This document shows positions 17,008 to 26,624 of a stretch of DNA of 64,000 nt, in pieces. Below the pieces are notes generated by a model, which saw only the letters and a program-made list of their open reading frames with translations, did not search any database and was not told the origin of the DNA. The DNA comes from an uncultured Acidobacteriota bacterium. Lineage in GTDB: Bacteria > Acidobacteriota > Thermoanaerobaculia > Gp7-AA8. Every line of letters starts with the position of its first letter. Position 1 is the stretch's first letter. Position numbers and translations under genes: made by a program. Location of the stretch: contig CAWGHO010000003.1 of NCBI GenBank assembly GCA_963822445.1, positions 448,001-512,000 of the forward strand, given 5' to 3'.

Positions 17008-18459
17008 ATGTCGTATCCCATCTCCTTCGGCACCGACGGCTGGCGCGCCGTCATTGCCGACACTTTTACCTTCGACAACGTGAAGCTGGTCAGCGACGCC
17101 ATCGCCGTCGCGGCGCGGACGCTGAAGCCGCCCGCGGACGTCGACGCGAACGCGCTGATCGTCGGATTCGATCGCCGGTTTCTGTCGCGTGAATTCGCGG
17201 CGCTGGTCGCGGAGTCTCTGCGCGCGGCCGGATATCGCGTTCTGCTCTCCGATCGTCCCACGCCCTCCCAGACCATCTCCTTCACCGCCCGTCATCGCAA
17301 GCTCCTCGGCGGCGTCGTCGTCACGGCCAGTCACAACCCGGCCAACTACAACGGACTCAAATTCAAGGCGTGGTACGGCGGATCGGCGTTGCCCGAGACG
17401 TACGCGGCCATCGCGGCGAGCGTCGGAAAACGCGATGCGCGCGAAGGCGGCTCGATTGCCGAAGAGAACATCCTCGACGACTACCTCGACGCGGTACGCG
17501 CGCAACTCGATCTCGATCTGCTCAAGTCGGCGAAGCTGGCGATTCTGCACGACCCCATCCACGGCGCCGCGGCGACGCTGCCGTCGAAGATCCTCGGCAT
17601 CGATTACGTCGGCTCGCGGCGGATCCTCAATCGCGTCGAGCATCCTTTCGAGACCACCCTCATCGACGGCATTCGCGGAGACGTCAATCCCTCGTTCGGC
17701 GGCGTGAATCCCGAGCCGATTCCTGAGAATCTGGCGGCGTCCCGCAACGTGATGCTCTCCGGCGATTACGACCTGGCCATCTGCAACGACGGCGACGCCG
17801 ACCGGCTGGGCATCCTCGATGAGCGCGGCGAATTCGTCTCACCGCACAAGATCATTTCCCTGCTCGCGCTGTATCTCGTGCGGGAGAAGAAGCGCGAAGG
17901 GGAGATCGTGAAGACGTTCTCCACCACCCGGCTCATCGAGCGCGTCGCGAAATCCCTCGGCGCGACGCTGCACGAGACGCCGATCGGCTTCAAGTACGTC
18001 GCCGATCTGATGCTCGCCCGCAACGTCCTTGTCGGCGGGGAGGAGAGCGGCGGCATCGGCTTCGGCGCGTTCATGCCCGAGCGCGACGGCGTGCTCTCGG
18101 GCCTGCTCGTCGCGGAAGCGGTCGCGCATTACGGACTGCCGCTCTCCGACATCATCGCCAGGATGGAAAAGGAGTTCGGCGCGCTGCATTACGACCGCCG
18201 CGACGTCCGCCGTCCGATGGAACAGTGCGCGCGGCTGATCGAGCGCGTCCGCGCCGGCGAGCTCGATCGCACGTTCGGCGACGGCTTCGAATCCCGCGAG
18301 GAAACCGACGGCGTGAAGATCAACTTCGCCGACGGCTCGTGGATCCTCTTCCGCAAGTCCGGCACCGAGCCGCTCATCCGCATTTACTGCGAGAGCCTCG
18401 AGGCGGCGCGGGTGCAGTCGATGCTGGACCGGGCTGTTGAAGAGCTGGATCGCGTCTGA
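17008..18459 (+). CDS. Phosphoglucomutase/phosphomannomutase family protein
   Basis: FGTDGWRA, TASHNP, DGDADR, GGEESGG, RKSGTEP. Confidence 0.95.
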   Translation: MSYPISFGTDGWRAVIADTFTFDNVKLVSDAIAVAARTLKPPADVDANALIVGFDRRFLSREFAALVAESLRAAGYRVLLSDRPTPSQTISFTARHRKLLGGVVVTASHNPANYNGLKFKAWYGGSALPETYAAIAASVGKRDAREGGSIAEENILDDYLDAVRAQLDLDLLKSAKLAILHDPIHGAAATLPSKILGIDYVGSRRILNRVEHPFETTLIDGIRGDVNPSFGGVNPEPIPENLAASRNVMLSGDYDLAICNDGDADRLGILDERGEFVSPHKIISLLALYLVREKKREGEIVKTFSTTRLIERVAKSLGATLHETPIGFKYVADLMLARNVLVGGEESGGIGFGAFMPERDGVLSGLLVAEAVAHYGLPLSDIIARMEKEFGALHYDRRDVRRPMEQCARLIERVRAGELDRTFGDGFESREETDGVKINFADGSWILFRKSGTEPLIRIYCESLEAARVQSMLDRAVEELDRV

Positions 18460-18475
18460 GGTAGGATTCGGGCCG

Positions 18476-20841
<2,366 letters not shown>

Positions 20842-20842
<1 letters not shown>

Positions 20843-21168
20843 TGCTCGCAAAGACTCCTGATCCGCCCTATTACGCCGTGATCTTCACGTCGCTGCGCAC
20901 GCCGGTCGCGGAGGGTTACGACGACATGTCCGCGAAGATGGTGGAGATGGCCGCGCAGCAGCCCGGCTTCCTCGGCGTGGAAAGCGCTCGCGGCGAAGAT
21001 GGCCTGGGCATCACCGTTTCGTACTGGGAGAGCGAAGAGGCCATTGCCAACTGGCGCGCCAACGCCGAGCATCGCGTCGCGCAGTCGCAGGGTCGCGAGC
21101 AGTGGTACACCGAGTTCGTGACACGCGTGGCCAAGGTCGAGCGCGCGCGGACGTTCGCCGCGGGCTGA
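20842..21168 (+). CDS. Antibiotic biosynthesis monooxygenase (ABM) family protein
   Basis: PPYYAVIFTS...QPGFLGVESAR..GITVSYW...HRVAQ..GREQWY; TAATG coupling to the upstream gene. Confidence 0.9.
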
Positions 21169-21404
21169 GGGGAAACGACCAGGGGCCTCCGGCGGGCCGG
21201 CACGGCCGGCAGCGCTGATGTTGGCGTAAACGCGACCCGCGCTGGCTACCGCGAGCTCGGCAGAAGGCACAATCAACGCTGCCGGCCGTGCCGGCCCGCC
21301 TATAGCTTGTCCGACCGTCTCTCCGCTTCTCCCTCAGCCTTCACAGAAATACCCGTTGCGTGGCGATCAGGAGAACCGAGTTCAGACGGCGCGATACTAA
21401 GAAG

Positions 21405-21555
21405 AAGGGTTCGTCCCGCTACGAATTCCGCCCGTGTTCGGATCGACGAATCCCTCCGGACTTTCGAGCGGGACGAAGTGCTTTGGCCCGAAACGCATTC
21501 TCAGATGCTGTCGGAGCACGACTCGACTATAGGCCTTGCGCGCGGCCAAAGCCAA
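21405..21555 (+). ncRNA. IS110 bridge RNA (target-binding and donor-binding loops); the 5' end probably extends to about 21312
   Basis: Stem 21410-21420/21467-21477 encloses CCGCCCG (6/7 to the target left flank CGGCCCG) and CCTCCGG (reverse complement of core plus right target CCGGAGG). Stem 21480-21488/21544-21552 encloses CTCAGATG (matches the right-end donor) and CTATAGG (reverse complement of core plus left-end CCTATAG). Confidence 0.8.
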
Positions 21556-21572
21556 CCCGAAGGGAGGGTGTG

Positions 21573-22817
21573 ATGAGCGAGTTCGAGTTTGGGGCGTTGG
21601 TGGGACTGGATTGGGGTGACACATCGCACGAGGTGGCTCTTTGGGACGAGCAACAGCAGACGTGCACGAACGAGCGCATCGAGCACACGCCTGCGGCTCT
21701 GCGCGCATGGATCGAAGGCTCGGATGAAACGCCTCACGATACCGGGCTGCACTGCGTGGGTTGATCGGATACAACGTGACGAACGGATAGCCGCTGAGCG
21801 CGTCGAAGACCGCGCCGCGGGACTGCTCGATGGCCACGGCGATCGGTGCCCCGCCGAAGCGCGCCTGCAGCGCTTTCGAAAGACGATCCGACCGACGCGG
21901 CGTCCTTGCTCGACCTGCTCCGTAAGCACCGCAACGAGCTGCGCCCGTTCATCGCCGACGACGCTTCTACGCGTCTGCTGCGGCTTCTGACCGAGGATCG
22001 GCGGGAGCTCGTCGATCAGAGGACGCAACACGTCCAACGCATGACCGATCGGCTCAAGACGTACTACCCGCAGGCGCTCCGGTGGGCCGGCGCGTTGATT
22101 ACGGCGCAGGCCTGTGACTTCCTCGAACGCTGGCCGACGCTCGAGGCCATCCAAAGGGCTCGGCCGTCCGCGATACGGAGGTTCTATGCGGGTCATCATC
22201 ACGCGGCCGCGTGGATCGACCAGAAGCTCGCCGAGATCCGTTCAGAGGTCGCGTTCCACGACGATCAGGTCACCACTGACGCTGCCGTGCTGCTGATCGG
22301 AAGCGAGGTTGCGCAGATCCGGGCCCTCAACGCGAGCATCGCCACGTACGACCAGAAGATCTCGGCGGCGTTCGCCGCCCACCAGGACGCGTCGATCTTC
22401 GCGAGCTTCCCTGGCGCCGGCCAACAGCTCGCGCCGCGGCTCGCCGCCGCCTTCGGGACCGATCGCAAGCGCTTCGGCAGCGCCGTCAACGTCGCCACCC
22501 GAAGCGGCATCGCCCCGGTTCTCCGCCGGAGCGGCAAAACGGCGGTCGTGCACATGCGCTGGGCCTGTCCGAAGTTCCTGCGTCAGACGTTCCATGAGTA
22601 CGCCCGCGTGTCGATCGGTCAGTCCGAATGGGCTCGAGCCTTCTACAAGCAGCAACGCGCGCGCGGACACAGCCACCACGAGGCTATCCGCACGCTCGCT
22701 TACCGCTGGATCCGCGTCCTTTACGCCTGCTGGAACAATCGCACCGTCTACGACGAAGCTCTCTATCTGCGGCAGCTCGCCACGCGAGGCTCAACCCTCG
22801 CCACAGCTGCTGCCTGA
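21573..22817 (+). pseudogene. IS110 DEDD transposase/recombinase disrupted by an internal 157-bp inversion (21717-21873)
   Basis: GLDWG on the + strand, AVAIEQ...YPINP on the - strand, KDDPTDA and APVLRRSGK on the + strand. Flipping 21717-21873 yields a continuous 414-aa ORF. Confidence 0.88.
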
Positions 22818-22818
22818 C

Positions 22819-22841
22819 TTGACAGGAAGGCTCAGATGTCC
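22819..22841 (+). promoter_or_regulatory. -35 half of the IS110 circle-junction promoter
   Basis: TTGACA 22819-22824 plus 17 nt to the element end; circularisation joins it to TATAGC at 21301-21306. Confidence 0.75.
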
Positions 22842-22863
22842 GGAGGCCCCACGGTCGTTCTCT

Positions 22864-23631
22864 CTAGCCCCGCACCCGCTGACCGCCCGTGTACACGTTG
22901 AAGCGCCCGTCGCGCACGAATCCGAGGAGCGTGAGGTTGAATTCGCTCGCGAGCTCGATCGCCAGCGAGGACGGTGCACCGACCGCGGCCAGGACCGCGA
23001 TGCGCGCGACCAGCGCCTTCTGCACGATCTCGAAACTGGTCCGGCCGCTGACGACCATCACCCGATCGGCGATGCTCGCGCCTTCGCGGAAAAACGAGCC
23101 GATCACTTTGTCGACGGCGTTGTGCCGGCCGATGTCCTCACGAATGCGGACGAGCTCACCGGTTGTCGTGAAGATCCCGGCGGCGTGAATCGCACCGGTG
23201 GCGTCGAATGCCTTCTGTGCGGCGCGGAGTGTTTCGGGCAGCGACGAGATGATGGCGGGGGAGACCCGCGCGTTCGATTCGATTGGCGTGAGGTGCACGC
23301 GCAACGCGTCGATCGAGACCTTGCCGCACACACCGCACGACGACGTCGAATAGAAATGGCGTTGCAGGCGCTGCAGATCGAGTTTTTCACGGGCCTCTAC
23401 GCGCACGATGTTCGATGAGCCCCAGTGACGGATCGACACGATTTCCGTGGCTGCTCTGAGAATCGATTCGGTGAACAGGAACCCCGCGGCCAGGTCGAAG
23501 TCCTCGCCGGGCGTTCGCAGGGTTACCGAGACGGGCTTCTCGCCGACACGGATCTCCAGCGGTTCCTCGACGGCGACGATGTCCTCGGCTTCGGTGGGGA
23601 CGCCTGCTTCGTATCGGGTGATGCGCGTCAT
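22864..23631 (-). CDS. fdhD: Formate dehydrogenase accessory sulfurtransferase
   Basis: VEEPLEIRV..TLRTPG..LAAGFLFTE, SSCGVCG, TGAIHAA, REDIGRHNAVDK. Confidence 0.95.
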   Translation of the reverse strand: MTRITRYEAGVPTEAEDIVAVEEPLEIRVGEKPVSVTLRTPGEDFDLAAGFLFTESILRAATEIVSIRHWGSSNIVRVEAREKLDLQRLQRHFYSTSSCGVCGKVSIDALRVHLTPIESNARVSPAIISSLPETLRAAQKAFDATGAIHAAGIFTTTGELVRIREDIGRHNAVDKVIGSFFREGASIADRVMVVSGRTSFEIVQKALVARIAVLAAVGAPSSLAIELASEFNLTLLGFVRDGRFNVYTGGQRVRG

Positions 23632-23672
23632 CGTTCGACATGCTAGTGGAGCACTCCATTAAACTCCCGCCC

Positions 23673-26624
23673 ATGTGGCCGATCCTCCGCCAACTCCTGG
23701 GTGACAAGAACGCCGCAGTCAGCGAACGCACCCGCAACCTGCAGCCGAAAAACGAGAACACCAGCGTCGCGCGATCGGTCTGCCCGTACTGCGCGGTCGG
23801 CTGCGGACAGCTGGTCTTTCACCGCGGCGATCGCGTGGTCAGCATCGAAGGCGATCCCGCATCGCCCATCTCCCGCGGCCACCTCTGTCCCAAAGGCGCC
23901 GCGAGCTACGAGCTGGTCACGCACGCCGGTCGAGCCACGCGAGTGAAATACCGCGCACCGCGATCGCGCAAGTGGACGGAGCTCGATCTCGAGACGGCGG
24001 TGGACATGGTCGCCGACCGCATCTGGGCGACGCGCGAGCGCACCTTCGACGAAAAGCACAACCACACCACCGGCATCGCCCACCTCGGCGGCGCGACGCT
24101 CGACATCGAAGAGAACTACCTCATCAAGAAGCTCTTCACCGCCGGACTGGGGATGGTCTGCCTGAGCAATCAGGCGCGGATATGACACAGCTCCACGGTG
24201 CCCGGTCTGGGTACCACTTACGGCCGCGGCGGCGCCACGACCGCGCAGCAGGACCTCGCCAATTCCGACGCCATTCTGATCATGGGCTCGTCGATGGCCG
24301 AGAACCATCCAGTCGGATTCCAGTGGGTGATCGAAGCGCGCGAAAAGAATCACGCGAAGGTCATCCATGTCGACCCGCGATTCACTCGCACGTCGGCCAT
24401 GGCCGATTACTGGCTCCCACTGCGCGCCGGCAGCGACCTGATCTTCCTCGGCGCGATGATCAACTACGTCATCGCGAACGACCGCTGGTTCCGCGAGTAC
24501 GTCGTGCGCTACACGAATGCGGCGGTGATCGTCCGCGATGATTTCGTCGATACCGAGGATCTCGGTGGCGTTTTTTCGGGTCCGGAGACGTGGTTGTATC
24601 CGGACGCGCCGTCGGGATCGCGCGACACCGGCCATCGCGGCGAAGCACAAGGCGCGCCGCAAACGCCGCCCGATCCACCGCGCGACGAAACGCTGCAGCA
24701 TCCGCGATGCGTGTTCCAGGTGCTGAAGCGCCACTTCGCGCGGTACACGCCGGAGATGGTCGAGCGCTCGTGCGGGATTCCGGCGGCATCGTTTCTCGAG
24801 GTAGCGGACGTCTTCACGAGCGCTTCCGGACCGGAGAAGACCGCGTCGATCTGTTACGCCGTCGGCTGGACGCAGCATTCGAGCGGCGTGCAGACCATCC
24901 GCGCCGCGGCCATCCTTCAATTACTGCTCGGCAACGTCGGCCGTCCCGGCGGAGGAATCATGGCCCTCCGCGGACACGCGTCGATTCAGGGCTCGACGGA
25001 CATCCCCACGCTCTACGACATCCTGCCCGGCTACCTGCCCATGCCCACGTCGAGCGAGCCGTCCCTTGGCGACTACCTGAAGAAACACAAAGCGGCGAAG
25101 GGCTGGTGGTTCAACGTCGACAACTACCTCGTCTCGCTGCTGAAGGCTTACTACGGCGATGAGGCGAAACGCGAAAACGACTTCGGATACGCGTGGCTGC
25201 CGCGGCTCACCGGCGATCACTCCTACTTCGGCTACTGGCTGGACATGGCCGACGGCAAGCTCGAAGGGCTGATGGTCATGGGCCAAAACCCGGCGGTCGG
25301 CTCGCCGAACGCGAAGCTCGAGCGCGACGCGATGAAGAAGCTGAAGTGGATGGTTGTGCGGGAGATGGTCGAGACCGAAACGGCGATGTTCTGGCAGGAC
25401 GGGCCGGATGACGTCGAGACCGAGGTGTTCTTCTTCCCCGCGGCATCCCATGTCGAGAAGGACGGAACGTTCACCAACACCCAGCGCCTGCTGCAGTGGC
25501 GCGAGAAAGCGGTCGAGCCGCCCGGCGACGCCCGGAGTGAGCTGCAATTCATGGTCGCCCTCGGCCGCAAGCTCAAGGCCAAGGCGACGGACGCGCCGCG
25601 CGATGCGGCGCTCCGCGCGTTGACGTGGGATTACGCGGATGAAGATGCGGAGGAAGTGCTGCGGGAGATTCATGGCGGCCCGCGCATCAAGCACTTCGGC
25701 GAATTGAAAAACGACGGCTCGACCTACTGCGGCTGCTGGATCTACTCCGGCGTCTTCGACGGCGAGAACAAAGCAAACAACCGCGCGCCGAAAGGCCGCC
25801 ACGCGCACGGCTGGGGCTACGCGTGGCCGCTCGATCGCCGCATCCTCTACAACCGCGCCTCCGCGCGGCCGGACGGCAGACCATGGAGCGAGCGCAAGGC
25901 CCTGGTCTGGTGGGATGAAGAAAAGCGCGAGTGGGTCGGTCACGACGTGCCCGACTTCACTCGGGGAAAAGCACCCGACTATGTTCCAACCGCGGAGAGC
26001 GGCGGCGATGAAGCGCTGGCCGGCGACGCGCCGTTCATCATGCATCCCGACGGCATGGGCTGGTTGTGGGTTCCATCGGGCCTGAAGGACGGACCGTTGC
26101 CGGCGCATTACGAGCCGCTCGAATCGAACATCCGCAATCCGCTGTACGAACAGCAATCCAATCCCGCGGCTCTCCGTTTCGAGCGACCCGATAATCCGTA
26201 CGCCTCGTCACCCGACGCGCGATTCCCGTTCGTCCTCACCACCTATCGCCTGACTGAGCATCACACCGCCGGTGGCATGTCCCGCACGCTCTCGCATCTC
26301 GCGGAGCTTCAGCCCGAGCTCTTCGCGGAGATCTCGCCGGAGCTCGCGACGCAGGTCGGCGTGTCCAACGGTGAGTTCGTGACGATCTCCACGGCCCGCG
26401 GCGCGATCAATGCGCGTGCGCTCGTGACGACGCGCATGCCCTCGCTGCAGATTGACGGACAGACCGTGCACCAGGTCGGCCTGCCGTATCACTGGGGCGA
26501 TCGCGGTCTGGTGAAAGGGGACGTCGTCAACGATCTCCTGGCGATCTCCGAAGAGCCGAACGTGAAGATCTTCGAGTCGAAGGGGCTGACCTGCAATCTG
26601 ACGCGGAGTGCGTCAGCGGAATAG
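23673..26624 (+). CDS. fdhA: Selenocysteine-containing formate dehydrogenase alpha subunit (FdnG/FdoG-like); UGA-Sec at 24183-24185; alternative start 23640
   Basis: CPYCAVGCG...LCPKG Fe-S motif. NQARI-U-HSSTVPGLG joins two in-frame ORFs. Also AENHPVG, LRGHASIQG, LTTYRLTEH. Confidence 0.93.
24183..24215 (+). promoter_or_regulatory. UGA codon plus bacterial SECIS element
   Basis: TGA, 11 nt, then hairpin GGTGCCC-GGTCT-GGGTACC (24197-24215), matching the fdhF-type geometry and loop. Confidence 0.9.

What the first reader, a model, noticed from the sequence alone, without database searches (positions are those of the whole stretch)
21301..22841. IS110 element with a fully readable bridge RNA and a CC (not CT) core
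Seen: the empty target is CGGCCCG-CC-GGAGG and the circle junction (donor) is CTCAGATGT-CC-TATAG. The left non-coding end holds two parallel stem-loops. Loop 1 has CCGCCCG (21428-21434, 6/7 to the left target) and CCTCCGG (21453-21459, exact reverse complement of CC-GGAGG). Loop 2 has CTCAGATG (21500-21507, exact donor match) and CTATAGG (21527-21533, exact reverse complement of CC-TATAG). Both loops share a tt-guide-tg...guide-GG-nCT scaffold. Knowledge: IS110 recombinases such as IS621 use a bispecific bridge RNA and a CT core. Inference: this is a divergent RNA-guided recombinase with a CC core, in which only the right guides appear to read the core, and it is a candidate programmable tool.
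Basis: partly seen in the sequence, partly recalled or inferred. Interest (0 to 1): 0.8.

Follow-up and report, generated by a model that had tools for sequence, protein, structure and literature searches.

The report
IS110 element with CC-core bridge RNA
This is a multi-copy IS110-type insertion sequence whose left end encodes a two-loop "bridge RNA" matching both its REP-like insertion site and its own ends; it is an ordinary member of a recently described class, unusual mainly in recombining at a CC rather than a CT dinucleotide.

Summary
Window 21301-22841 is a 1541-bp IS110-group element. Its genome holds 10 full copies with identical ends, each inserted in the same orientation into C[C/G]GCCCG-CC-GGAGG, part of a REP-like repeat. 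Forty exact empty 14-mers remain.

The left end (272 nt) carries two stem-loops with internal loops. Loop 1 matches the target and loop 2 matches the element's joined ends. Across 35 orthologous RNAs the outer stems covary. Across 34 guide families the target guides track their own flanks. Handshake bases and a split TTGACA-17 nt-TATAGC junction promoter are also present.

The CC core is real and is shared by a monophyletic Acidobacteriota clade. Sister clades use CT, AT, GT and other cores, and their right guides change to match.

"Only the right guides read the core" holds for this element, but sister elements have CC in the left target guide.

The window copy is defective: a 161-bp inversion breaks its recombinase. 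Nine other copies encode an intact 414-aa protein with DEDD and Ser residues conserved.

No RNA or circle-junction data were available. Verdict: a new member of a known kind, with a natural core variant.

The parts
21281..21295 (+). GC-rich mini-hairpin of the REP-like target repeat (GCCGGC-CGT-GCCGGC), immediately 5' of and overlapping the left target
   Evidence: Read. The same hairpin folds at all 10 occupied sites, and arm variants keep the pairing. It is also visible in the empty sites listed.
21292..21298 (+). Left target (LT) CGGCCCG
   Evidence: Seven of 10 occupied sites have CGGCCCG, and 3 of 10 have CCGCCCG, which matches the left target guide exactly.
21299..21300 (.). Left copy of the CC core
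   Evidence: CC precedes TATAG in 10 of 10 copies.
21301..22841 (+). IS110-group insertion sequence, 1541 bp, counted with the right CC core copy
   Evidence: 10 full copies at 96-100% identity, with identical ends.
21301..21306 (+). Right donor TATAG(C). It doubles as the -10-like half of the promoter that would form at the circle junction
   Evidence: Read. TATAG-type left-end starts are conserved in orthologues. No + strand promoter is found in the integrated left end.
21308..21397 (+). Predicted 5' stem-loop/leader of the RNA, variable among copies
   Evidence: Fold. There are 11 differences between the window copy and the majority copy in the first 100 nt.
21408..21478 (+). Target-binding loop (TBL) stem-loop. 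The outer stem is 21410-21419 paired with 21468-21477, and the inner hairpin is 21437-21450
   Evidence: The outer stem has 13 of 15 pairs with compensatory changes across 35 orthologues.
21428..21436 (+). Left target guide (LTG) CCGCCCG plus UG at the two core positions
   Evidence: The guide covaries with left flanks in sister elements (ACCTCCC, ACCTCGC, ACTTCGC).
21453..21459 (+). Right target guide (RTG) CCTCCGG, the reverse complement of CC-GGAGG
   Evidence: 10 of 10 sites. Cognate guides match 6.40 of 7 bases against 2.99 of 7 for non-cognate pairs.
21460..21461 (+). Target-loop handshake guide AC, complementary to donor positions 7 and 6 (T, G)
   Evidence: the first base pairs with donor position 7 in 21 of 27 families, and in 6 of 6 CC-core families.
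21480..21552 (+). Donor-binding loop (DBL) stem-loop. The outer stem is 21480-21488 paired with 21544-21552, and the inner hairpin is 21510-21522
   Evidence: All 6 of 6 outer pairs show compensatory changes.
21500..21507 (+). Left donor guide (LDG) CTCAGATG, identical to the right-end sequence 22831-22838
   Evidence: an exact 8-mer arises in 60 of 20000 shuffles.
21527..21533 (+). Right donor guide (RDG) CTATAGG, the reverse complement of CC-TATAG
   Evidence: The last two RDG bases match the left core copy in 24 of 27 families.
21534..21534 (+). Donor-loop handshake base C, complementary to target position 7 (G)
   Evidence: It changes to G in Vicinamibacterales elements, whose target position 7 is C.
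21573..21714 (+). Recombinase CDS, codons 1-47, intact up to the inversion
21715..21875 (-). 161-bp segment of the recombinase gene, inverted only in this copy. The breakpoint is ambiguous by 3 bp (AAG/CTT)
   Evidence: Soil-metagenome contigs of relatives show the other orientation.
21876..22817 (+). Remainder of the recombinase CDS, including the Tnp domain with Ser320 and the TGA stop at 22815-22817
22819..22824 (+). TTGACA, the -35 half of the junction promoter, 17 nt from the element end
   Evidence: Read. TTGAC is conserved in the right ends of orthologues.
22831..22839 (+). Left donor (LD) CTCAGATGT
22840..22841 (.). Right copy of the CC core
22842..22846 (+). Right target (RT) GGAGG
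   Evidence: 10 of 10 copies.
21183..21218 (-). Inverted partner copy of the REP-like repeat. It carries an unoccupied target on the minus strand
   Evidence: Read. Its reverse complement equals the reconstructed empty site except for one base.

Best explanation
The element is an IS110-group insertion sequence that moves by bridge-RNA-guided, serine/DEDD-recombinase-catalysed site-specific recombination, in the manner shown experimentally for IS621.

Inferred life cycle:
1. The element excises as a circle.
2. [quoted passage not shown]
3. That promoter transcribes the left end into an RNA with a 5' stem-loop and two internal-loop hairpins.
4. Loop 1 (TBL) pairs with the genomic target C[C/G]GCCCG-CC-GGAGG. 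[quoted passage not shown] 5. Loop 2 (DBL) pairs in the same way with the donor junction CTCAGATGT-CC-TATAG.
6. Strands are exchanged at the CC dinucleotide. Two-base and one-base handshake guides stabilise the exchanged top strands.

The target lies on the 3' side of a small GC hairpin in a REP-like repeat present in about 50 copies.

The CC core is a lineage-specific variant. It arose once in an Acidobacteriota clade of these elements, with matched changes in both right guides.

The window copy cannot make recombinase because of the 161-bp inversion. It keeps intact ends and RNA, so it could only move with protein from one of the nine intact copies.

Shown here: ends, target, copy number, guide complementarity, RNA and guide covariation, and catalytic residues. 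Inferred: transcription, circle formation, and RNA dependence.
For: - Ten of 10 copies have identical ends and target, in one orientation.
- There are 40 exact empty 14-mers against about 0.9 expected.
- The protein of the intact copies matches PF01548 + PF02371 and NF033542, named 'IS110 family RNA-guided transposase', at 143.2 bits against a cut-off of 140.
- A profile of 20 orthologues hits IS621 and ISCro4 at E 4e-16. D13, E64, D105, D108 and S320 align to IS621 D11, E60, D102, D105 and S241 and are invariant (IS621 residue numbers from passages).
- On 35 orthologous RNAs, 90.1% of cells are paired against 32-50% in slid controls. Twenty of 25 pairs show compensatory change. The covariation score is 0.565 against 0.10-0.15 in slid controls, and 0 of 500 shuffles reach it.
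- Guide-flank test on 46 insertions in 34 guide families: cognate left guides match 6.87 of 9 against 3.93 of 9 for non-cognate pairs; cognate right guides match 6.40 of 7 against 2.99 of 7.
- Donor guides change together with the ends (CTCAGAT/GG/AC/GT/AG; TATAG/TATGG/TACAG).
- The core-binding bases of the right donor guide match the left core copy in 24 of 27 families.
- Handshake bases: 21 of 27 families on the target loop and 17 of 27 on the donor loop, and 6 of 6 for each in the CC clade, with a C/G swap that tracks target position 7.
- The RNA region (element positions 108-253) has 1 substitution among the 10 copies, while the first 100 nt have 11 or more variable columns.
- All four guide matches together occurred in 0 of 20000 shuffles.
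- The CC clade is monophyletic with 99/98 support.
Against: - There is no RNA or circle-junction evidence. No RNA run holds the stretch, and only short metagenome contigs could be laid.
- Rfam 15 gives no match at E <= 1.
- The whole-left-end folding energy is not unusual: z -1.11, with 27 of 200 shuffles as good.
- The 6/7 left-target-guide match alone is expected by chance in 66% of shuffles.
- The left guides of this element do not Watson-Crick pair with the CC core (UG and CU). IS621 prefers such pairing (passages).
- Inner hairpins were not recovered by the MAFFT/RNAalifold consensus.
- Single-sequence similarity to the solved bridge recombinases is weak: E 1.8e-5 and 3e-4, C-terminal domain only.
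- The window copy's recombinase is broken.
- Some orthologue families match poorly, for example L042 at 3 of 9 on the left, and L038 at 3 of 7 and L054 at 4 of 7 on the right.
Confidence: 0.9

Rival explanations
1. The repeated motifs in the left end act as DNA rather than RNA. They would be subterminal copies of the element ends and of the target, serving as protein-binding sites for the recombinase, and no guide RNA would be involved.
For: The left donor guide is a direct repeat of the right-end tip, and the right donor guide is an inverted repeat of the left-end tip. Many transposases bind subterminal repeats (general knowledge). No transcript was seen here.
Against: The motifs sit in internal loops of hairpins whose stems show compensatory changes across 35 orthologues. 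That pattern constrains RNA or single-strand pairing, not duplex DNA. The loop-1 motifs track host flanks that are not part of the element. The strand logic and the handshake bases match IS621, where RNA dependence was shown experimentally (passages).
Confidence: 0.04
2. The left-end structure is mainly a 5'-UTR or regulatory leader controlling recombinase translation. On this reading the matches to target and donor are by-products of a GC-rich, repeat-derived sequence.
For: The structure ends about 20 nt before the Shine-Dalgarno-like GGGAGGG and the ATG. The left target guide match alone is within chance. The whole-left-end energy z-score is unremarkable.
Against: All four matches together occurred in 0 of 20000 shuffles. 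Guides covary with flanks and with ends in families of very different composition, including AT-rich gammaproteobacterial ones. Leader function and guide function are not mutually exclusive.
Confidence: 0.03
3. The family in this genome is an inactive fossil. On this reading the copies spread long ago, and the CC core reflects decay of a CT system rather than a working specificity.
For: The window copy is broken by an inversion. A rearranged head-to-head partial pair exists on contig C1. The left guides mismatch the core.
Against: Nine of 10 copies keep full 414-aa ORFs, and three are identical at the protein level. The RNA region is nearly invariant. CC occurs at both junctions in 10 of 10 copies. 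It also occurs in every Thermoanaerobaculia and Vicinamibacterales orthologue whose junction could be read, with both right guides reading GG. A change fixed across a clade at 52% protein identity is not decay.
Confidence: 0.05

Closest known systems
IS621 (E. coli), the prototype bridge recombinase (Durrant et al. 2024, PMC11208160; Hiraizumi et al. 2024, PMC11208158; passages read)
   Same: - Same domain pair, with DEDD + Ser residues aligned.
- Long left end and short right end.
- RNA with a 5' stem-loop followed by target-binding and donor-binding loops.
- Left guides are in the sense of the top strand and right guides are antisense.
- 14-bp site with the core at positions 8-9.
- Handshake bases 3' of each right guide.
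- The -35 and -10 boxes are split across the junction.
- REP-type targets.
   Different: - The core is CC rather than CT. The IS621 papers call the second T 'almost invariant' in IS621 and its related orthologues.
- The protein is 414 aa, against about 326 aa for IS621, and only remotely similar: single-sequence E 3e-4, profile E 4e-16.
- The right guides are 7 contiguous nt here. In IS621 the right target guide is 4 nt and the right donor guide is discontinuous.
- The left guides of this element do not pair with the core.
- The leader before the target-binding loop is about 95 nt.
ISCro4 / IS622 bridge recombinases used in human cells (PDB 9t56; Perry et al. preprint 10.1101/2025.05.14.653916, passages read)
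   Same: ISCro4 is the best PDB sequence hit (E 1.8e-5 for the single sequence, 4.1e-16 for the profile). The two-loop RNA logic and the handshake rule are the same, including target and donor positions 7 that differ (here G against T).
   Different: Those systems recombine at CT (GT is tolerated). This one uses CC. No activity data exist for this element.
ISPpu10 of Pseudomonas putida (preprint 10.64898/2026.03.19.712850, abstract only read)
   Same: It is an IS110 element whose repeated intergenic target carries a GC-rich stem-loop 5' of the paired bases. Here a 6-bp GC hairpin (21281-21295) sits at the same side of the target and keeps its pairing through arm variants.
   Different: Whether the hairpin contributes to recognition here is untested. 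The host phylum and the core are different.
IS1111-group elements with a 3' seekRNA/bridge RNA
   Same: Same recombinase family and the same RNA-guided principle.
   Different: In IS1111 the RNA lies in a long right end and there are longer subterminal inverted repeats (passage). Here the right end is 24 nt and the RNA is upstream of the gene.

Membership tests
IS110 family, IS110 group (bridge-RNA-guided insertion sequences) | Recombinase with an N-terminal DEDD RuvC-like domain (PF01548) and a C-terminal Tnp domain (PF02371) | tested here: met
   on the intact sister-copy protein P0001: PF01548 at E 1.6e-28 and PF02371 at E 1.3e-11. In the window copy the first domain is split by the inversion.
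IS110 family, IS110 group (bridge-RNA-guided insertion sequences) | Curated NCBIfam equivalog NF033542 'IS110 family RNA-guided transposase' reached | tested here: met
   143.2 bits against a cut-off of 140, so only just above threshold.
IS110 family, IS110 group (bridge-RNA-guided insertion sequences) | Catalytic D-E-D-D tetrad and serine nucleophile | tested here: met
   D13, E64, D105, D108 and S320 are invariant in 20 orthologues. They align with chain residues 13, 62, 104, 107 and 243 of 8wt6_A, which correspond to IS621 D11, E60, D102, D105 and S241 as named.
IS110 family, IS110 group (bridge-RNA-guided insertion sequences) | No terminal inverted repeats, no target duplication beyond a short shared core, and site- and orientation-specific insertion | tested here: met
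   10 of 10 copies sit in one target and one orientation. Only CC is shared at both junctions. No inverted repeat is evident on reading the two ends.
IS110 family, IS110 group (bridge-RNA-guided insertion sequences) | Long non-coding left end and short right end | tested here: met
   the left end is 272 nt (21301-21572) and the right end is 24 nt (22818-22841).
IS110 family, IS110 group (bridge-RNA-guided insertion sequences) | Left-end RNA with two hairpins bearing internal loops, supported by covariation | tested here: met
   20 of 25 pairs show compensatory change, and 90.1% of cells are paired against at most 49.8% when slid. The inner hairpins are seen per sequence only.
IS110 family, IS110 group (bridge-RNA-guided insertion sequences) | [quoted passage not shown] | tested here: met
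IS110 family, IS110 group (bridge-RNA-guided insertion sequences) | Loop 2 guides complementary to the right-end/left-end donor junction | tested here: met
   The orthologue ends were located with the guides themselves, so that part is partly circular. The window's own ends are fixed independently by the 10 copies.
IS110 family, IS110 group (bridge-RNA-guided insertion sequences) | Handshake guides 3' of each right guide that pair with the partner's position 7 | tested here: met
   21 of 27 and 17 of 27 families overall, and 6 of 6 for each in the CC clade.
IS110 family, IS110 group (bridge-RNA-guided insertion sequences) | Sigma-70-like promoter reconstituted across the circle junction | tested here: inconclusive
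   Sequence only: TTGACA at 22819-22824, then 17 nt, then TATAGC at 21301-21306. No + strand promoter is found in the integrated left end. Function was not tested.
IS110 family, IS110 group (bridge-RNA-guided insertion sequences) | RNA is expressed, is bound by the recombinase, and is required for recombination | not testable with these tools
   No RNA run is listed, and only contigs could be laid.
IS621-like subgroup (IS621, IS622, ISCro4) | CT core dinucleotide with a near-invariant T at position 9 | tested here: not met
   CC at both junctions in 10 of 10 copies, and GG in both right guides.
IS1111 group | Guide RNA in a long right end, with subterminal inverted repeats of 7-17 bp | tested here: not met
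   the right end is 24 nt, and the RNA lies upstream of the gene.

The most novel reading that the evidence does not exclude
The recombinases of this Acidobacteriota clade have naturally switched the second core base from the 'almost invariant' T to C. In this element they work although neither left guide pairs with the core. If so, core identity in bridge systems would be set mainly by the right guides plus a small protein change. A CC-core enzyme would open GC-rich, CCGG-centred sites that CT/GT-core tools cannot address.
Probability: 0.55. Interest if true: 0.5.

Novelty: new member of a known kind. Interest (0 to 1): 0.35.

Why it matters
Bridge recombinases are being developed as programmable genome-rearrangement tools, and the characterised ones (IS621, IS622, ISCro4) need a CT or GT core.

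This element provides a natural, recently active family with a CC core: nine intact near-identical copies and about 40 free targets. CT-, AT-, GT- and AA/GA-core relatives sit on the same tree. Together they form a ready-made comparison set for asking how the core is specified, and whether the left guides must read it.

For genome annotation, it explains a repeat-associated 1.5-kb element in Thermoanaerobaculia-like genomes. It also flags one copy as non-autonomous.

The class itself has already been described and heavily mined: 32,190 predicted bridge RNAs in the preprint read. The gain is therefore incremental.

Tried and rejected
- Rfam 15 at E <= 1 on 20800-23300 returned nothing.
- The whole-left-end fold energy was not distinctive.
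- Sequencing runs: no RNA holder was listed. Twenty rows hold part of the stretch, the best share being 0.24.
- Laying contigs of X1-X4 gave no circle junction and no contig joining across the element. The contigs were short, 90-560 nt on the stretch. They only showed relatives with the non-inverted gene segment and an L021-like left target guide.
- I considered whether the 161-bp inversion was made by the element's own recombinase. I rejected this because the breakpoints share only AAG/CTT, inside an imperfect short inverted repeat (GGATCGAAG against CTTTCGAAAGACGATCC), and there is no CC-centred guide match.
- I considered the alternative left-target-guide register UUCCGCC = GCCCGCC.
- The promoter scan found only a minus-strand site inside the donor-binding loop, at 21555-21526. 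I give it no weight.
- Literature: no paper in the library holds both 'bridge recombinase' and 'CC core'. The search found nothing on Acidobacteriota elements.
The supplementary tables and data of PMC11208160 and of the preprint may list CC-core orthologues, so 'not in print' is not claimed.
- I did not build a covariance model or predict structures. The alignment-based tests seemed sufficient.

Rows dropped:
- Of the 72 loci, I carried 50 with near-full-length matches. The 22 partial or truncated ones were left out by hand.
- L046 had no donor-binding loop.
- L056 and L073 failed the target-binding-loop parse.
- L048 (truncated upstream) and L051 (anchor mis-parse) were dropped.
- Alignment A1 used the window plus 34 of 37 unique RNAs. 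L045, L047 and L087 were left out.
- Alignment A2 used P0001 plus 19 hand-picked loci from the 38 that translate cleanly.
Full report
**Observation**

The element runs from TATAG at 21301 to CTCAGATGT-CC at 22841. The left flank ends CGGCCCG-CC at 21292-21300, and the right flank starts GGAGG at 22842. The recombinase ATG is at 21573, so the non-coding left end is 272 nt and the right end is 24 nt.

**Independent proof of the ends**

The window's genome (about 6.0 Mb, 3 contigs) holds 10 full copies at 96-100% identity, plus a rearranged head-to-head partial pair.
- All 10 copies have the same termini and lie in the same orientation in the same site.
- Seven sites read CGGCCCG-CC|GGAGG. Three read CCGCCCG-CC|GGAGG, which matches the loop-1 left guide 7/7.
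- Unoccupied sites exist as such: 32 and 8 exact 14-mers respectively, where about 0.9 would be expected.
- The empty sites sit in a REP-like repeat. Its 5' part is a 6-bp GC hairpin that keeps its pairing through arm variants.
- The window holds an inverted partner repeat at 21183-21218.

**Chance**

I ran 20000 dinucleotide shuffles of the left end.
- The 6/7 left-target match alone is unremarkable: 13214 shuffles reach it.
- The exact right target guide appears in 1011 shuffles, the exact left donor guide in 60, and the exact right donor guide in 68.
- Two or more of the three exact matches appear in 4 shuffles. All four matches together appear in none.

**Protein**

The window copy is the only one in which element positions 415-575 (window 21715-21875) are inverted. 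The inversion is exact, with a 3-bp AAG/CTT ambiguity, and it breaks the N-terminal domain.
- Contigs of relatives in soil metagenomes show the other orientation.
- The other nine copies encode 414-aa ORFs, three of them identical.
- The intact protein (P0001, read unchanged from L002) matches PF01548 and PF02371. It also matches NCBIfam NF033542 'IS110 family RNA-guided transposase' at 143.2 bits against a cut-off of 140.
- Alone, it finds ISCro4 and IS621 in the PDB only weakly, at E 1.8e-5 and 3e-4.
- A profile of 20 orthologues finds both at E about 4e-16. It aligns invariant D13, E64, D105, D108 and S320 with the IS621 DEDD tetrad and Ser241 (residue names from passages).

**RNA**

Loop 1 (TBL, 21408-21478)
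- Outer stem: 21410-21419 paired with 21468-21477.
- Left guide: CCGCCCG followed by UG, at 21428-21436.
- Inner hairpin: 21437-21450.
- Right guide: CCUCCGG at 21453-21459.
- Next two bases: AC.

Loop 2 (DBL, 21480-21552)
- Outer stem: 21480-21488 paired with 21544-21552.
- Left guide: CUCAGAUG at 21500-21507.
- Inner hairpin: 21510-21522.
- Right guide: CUAUAGG at 21527-21533.
- Next base: C.

- The strand logic is that of IS621. Left guides have the sense of the top strand, and right guides are antisense and include the core (passages).
- The bases after the right guides behave as handshake guides. AC pairs with donor positions 7 and 6 (T, G), and C pairs with target position 7 (G).
- Among the 10 copies the RNA region has one substitution, while the first 100 nt have 11 or more variable columns.
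- Rfam has no match.

**Relatives**

A scan of species-representative genomes gave 72 loci. By record title they include Thermoanaerobaculia (83-89% protein identity), Vicinamibacterales (about 52%), and then Planctomycetota, Gemmatimonadota, other Acidobacteriota and Gammaproteobacteria (38-49%).
- On 35 orthologous RNAs the outer stems of both loops covary. Twenty of 25 pairs show compensatory change. In all, 90.1% of cells are paired, against 32-50% when partners are slid. The covariation score is 0.565 against 0.10-0.15 in slid controls, and 0 of 500 shuffles reach it.
- I parsed guides and flanks for 46 insertions in 34 guide families (dropped rows are listed under Tried and rejected). 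Left guides match their own flank at 6.87 of 9 against 3.93 of 9 for other families' flanks. Right guides match at 6.40 of 7 against 2.99 of 7.
- Within the closest clade the left guide changes base for base with the flank (ACCTCCC, ACCTCGC, ACTTCGC).
- The donor guides change with the element ends.
- Handshake pairing holds in 21 of 27 families on the target loop and 17 of 27 on the donor loop. In the CC clade it holds in 6 of 6 for each, with a C-to-G swap that follows target position 7.

**The core**

CC is found at both junctions in all 10 copies. It is also found in every Thermoanaerobaculia and Vicinamibacterales element whose junction could be read, and both right guides end in GG there.
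- Sister elements have CT (right donor guide CTATAAG), AT, TT, GT or AA/GA. The right donor guide matches the left core copy in 24 of 27 families.
- On a protein tree the six CC rows form one clade with 99/98 support, next to a CT clade. So the T-to-C change at core position 2 arose once and was fixed together with both right guides.
- The IS621 structure paper calls that T 'almost invariant' among IS621 relatives and ascribes it to a main-chain contact (passage). I could not align that loop reliably.
Other clade members have CC or CA in the left target guide and C at the first core position of the left donor guide. In IS621 the left donor guide also stops at the first core base.

**Mechanism**

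The right end carries TTGACA (22819-22824) exactly 17 nt from the element end, and the left end begins TATAGC. A circle would therefore create a sigma-70-like promoter that an integrated copy lacks.

I therefore read the element as working like IS621: excision to a circle, junction-driven transcription of the bridge RNA, dual recognition of a 14-bp target and a 14-bp donor, and exchange at CC. Transcription, circles and RNA dependence are inferred. No RNA run holds the stretch, and the contigs laid were too short to show junctions.

**Novelty**

Bridge RNAs have been predicted in most IS110 elements (85.7% of ISfinder entries, passage). A recent preprint mined 32,190 of them with 86 models (section read). 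NCBI already names the protein family as RNA-guided.
- I found no paper that mentions a CC core with bridge recombinases.
- The experimentally used systems recombine at CT or GT (passages).
- Supplementary tables, which I could not open, may list such orthologues.
- I therefore file it as a new member of a known kind with a natural core variant. It is of moderate interest as a comparison set for core specificity and as a possible CC-core tool.

Noticed in passing
window 21715-21875: An exact 161-bp inversion inside the recombinase gene, found only in this one of 10 copies. It is bounded by an AAG/CTT microhomology within an imperfect short inverted repeat. The copy is therefore non-autonomous, though its ends and RNA are intact. 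An assembly artefact is not excluded.
   Followed up: yes
G000:C1:940357-941431 (locus L011): Two truncated right-end-containing fragments of the element (positions 847-1541 and 1161-1541) are joined head to head. Each ends at a GGAGGCC right flank. This is a palindromic rearrangement of unknown origin.
   Followed up: partly
window 23640-24560 (TGA at 24183-24185): A formate-dehydrogenase-alpha-like ORF with a twin-arginine-like N-terminus continues through an in-frame TGA in the context NQARI-U-HSSTV. This looks like a selenocysteine codon. An FdhD-like gene lies on the minus strand at 22864-23631, directly beside the element.
   Followed up: partly
own genome, about 50 sites; window 21183-21218 and 21276-21300 + 22842-22860: A REP-like repeat family (consensus ..CAGCGC(C)TGCCGGCCCGTGGCCGGCCCGCCGGAGGCC..) has a small GC hairpin whose arms vary in a compensatory way. 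In the window two copies face each other as an inverted pair.
   Followed up: partly
loci L049, L050, L052, L062, L071, L076 (Gammaproteobacteria): In these relatives the dinucleotide at the left junction is CT but the one at the right junction reads GT. Both right guides predict CT. So the first core base differs between the two junction copies, which is unexplained.
   Followed up: no
loci L051, L054, L055, L063, L070: Relatives whose right donor guides end in TT (predicting an AA core) and whose junctions read AA/GA. The second core base is therefore not T in yet another branch of this subfamily.
   Followed up: no
window 21301-21400 versus other copies: The window copy differs from the majority copy at 11 positions in the first 100 nt. 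Its predicted 5' stem-loop is weaker, at -29.1 against -42.7 kcal/mol.
   Followed up: partly
window 18437-20842: The 801-aa ORF listed here alternates between protein-like stretches and Arg/Pro/Ala-rich stretches. This suggests frame changes in a dehydrogenase-E1-like gene, or read-through of wrong frames in GC-rich DNA. Not examined.
   Followed up: no
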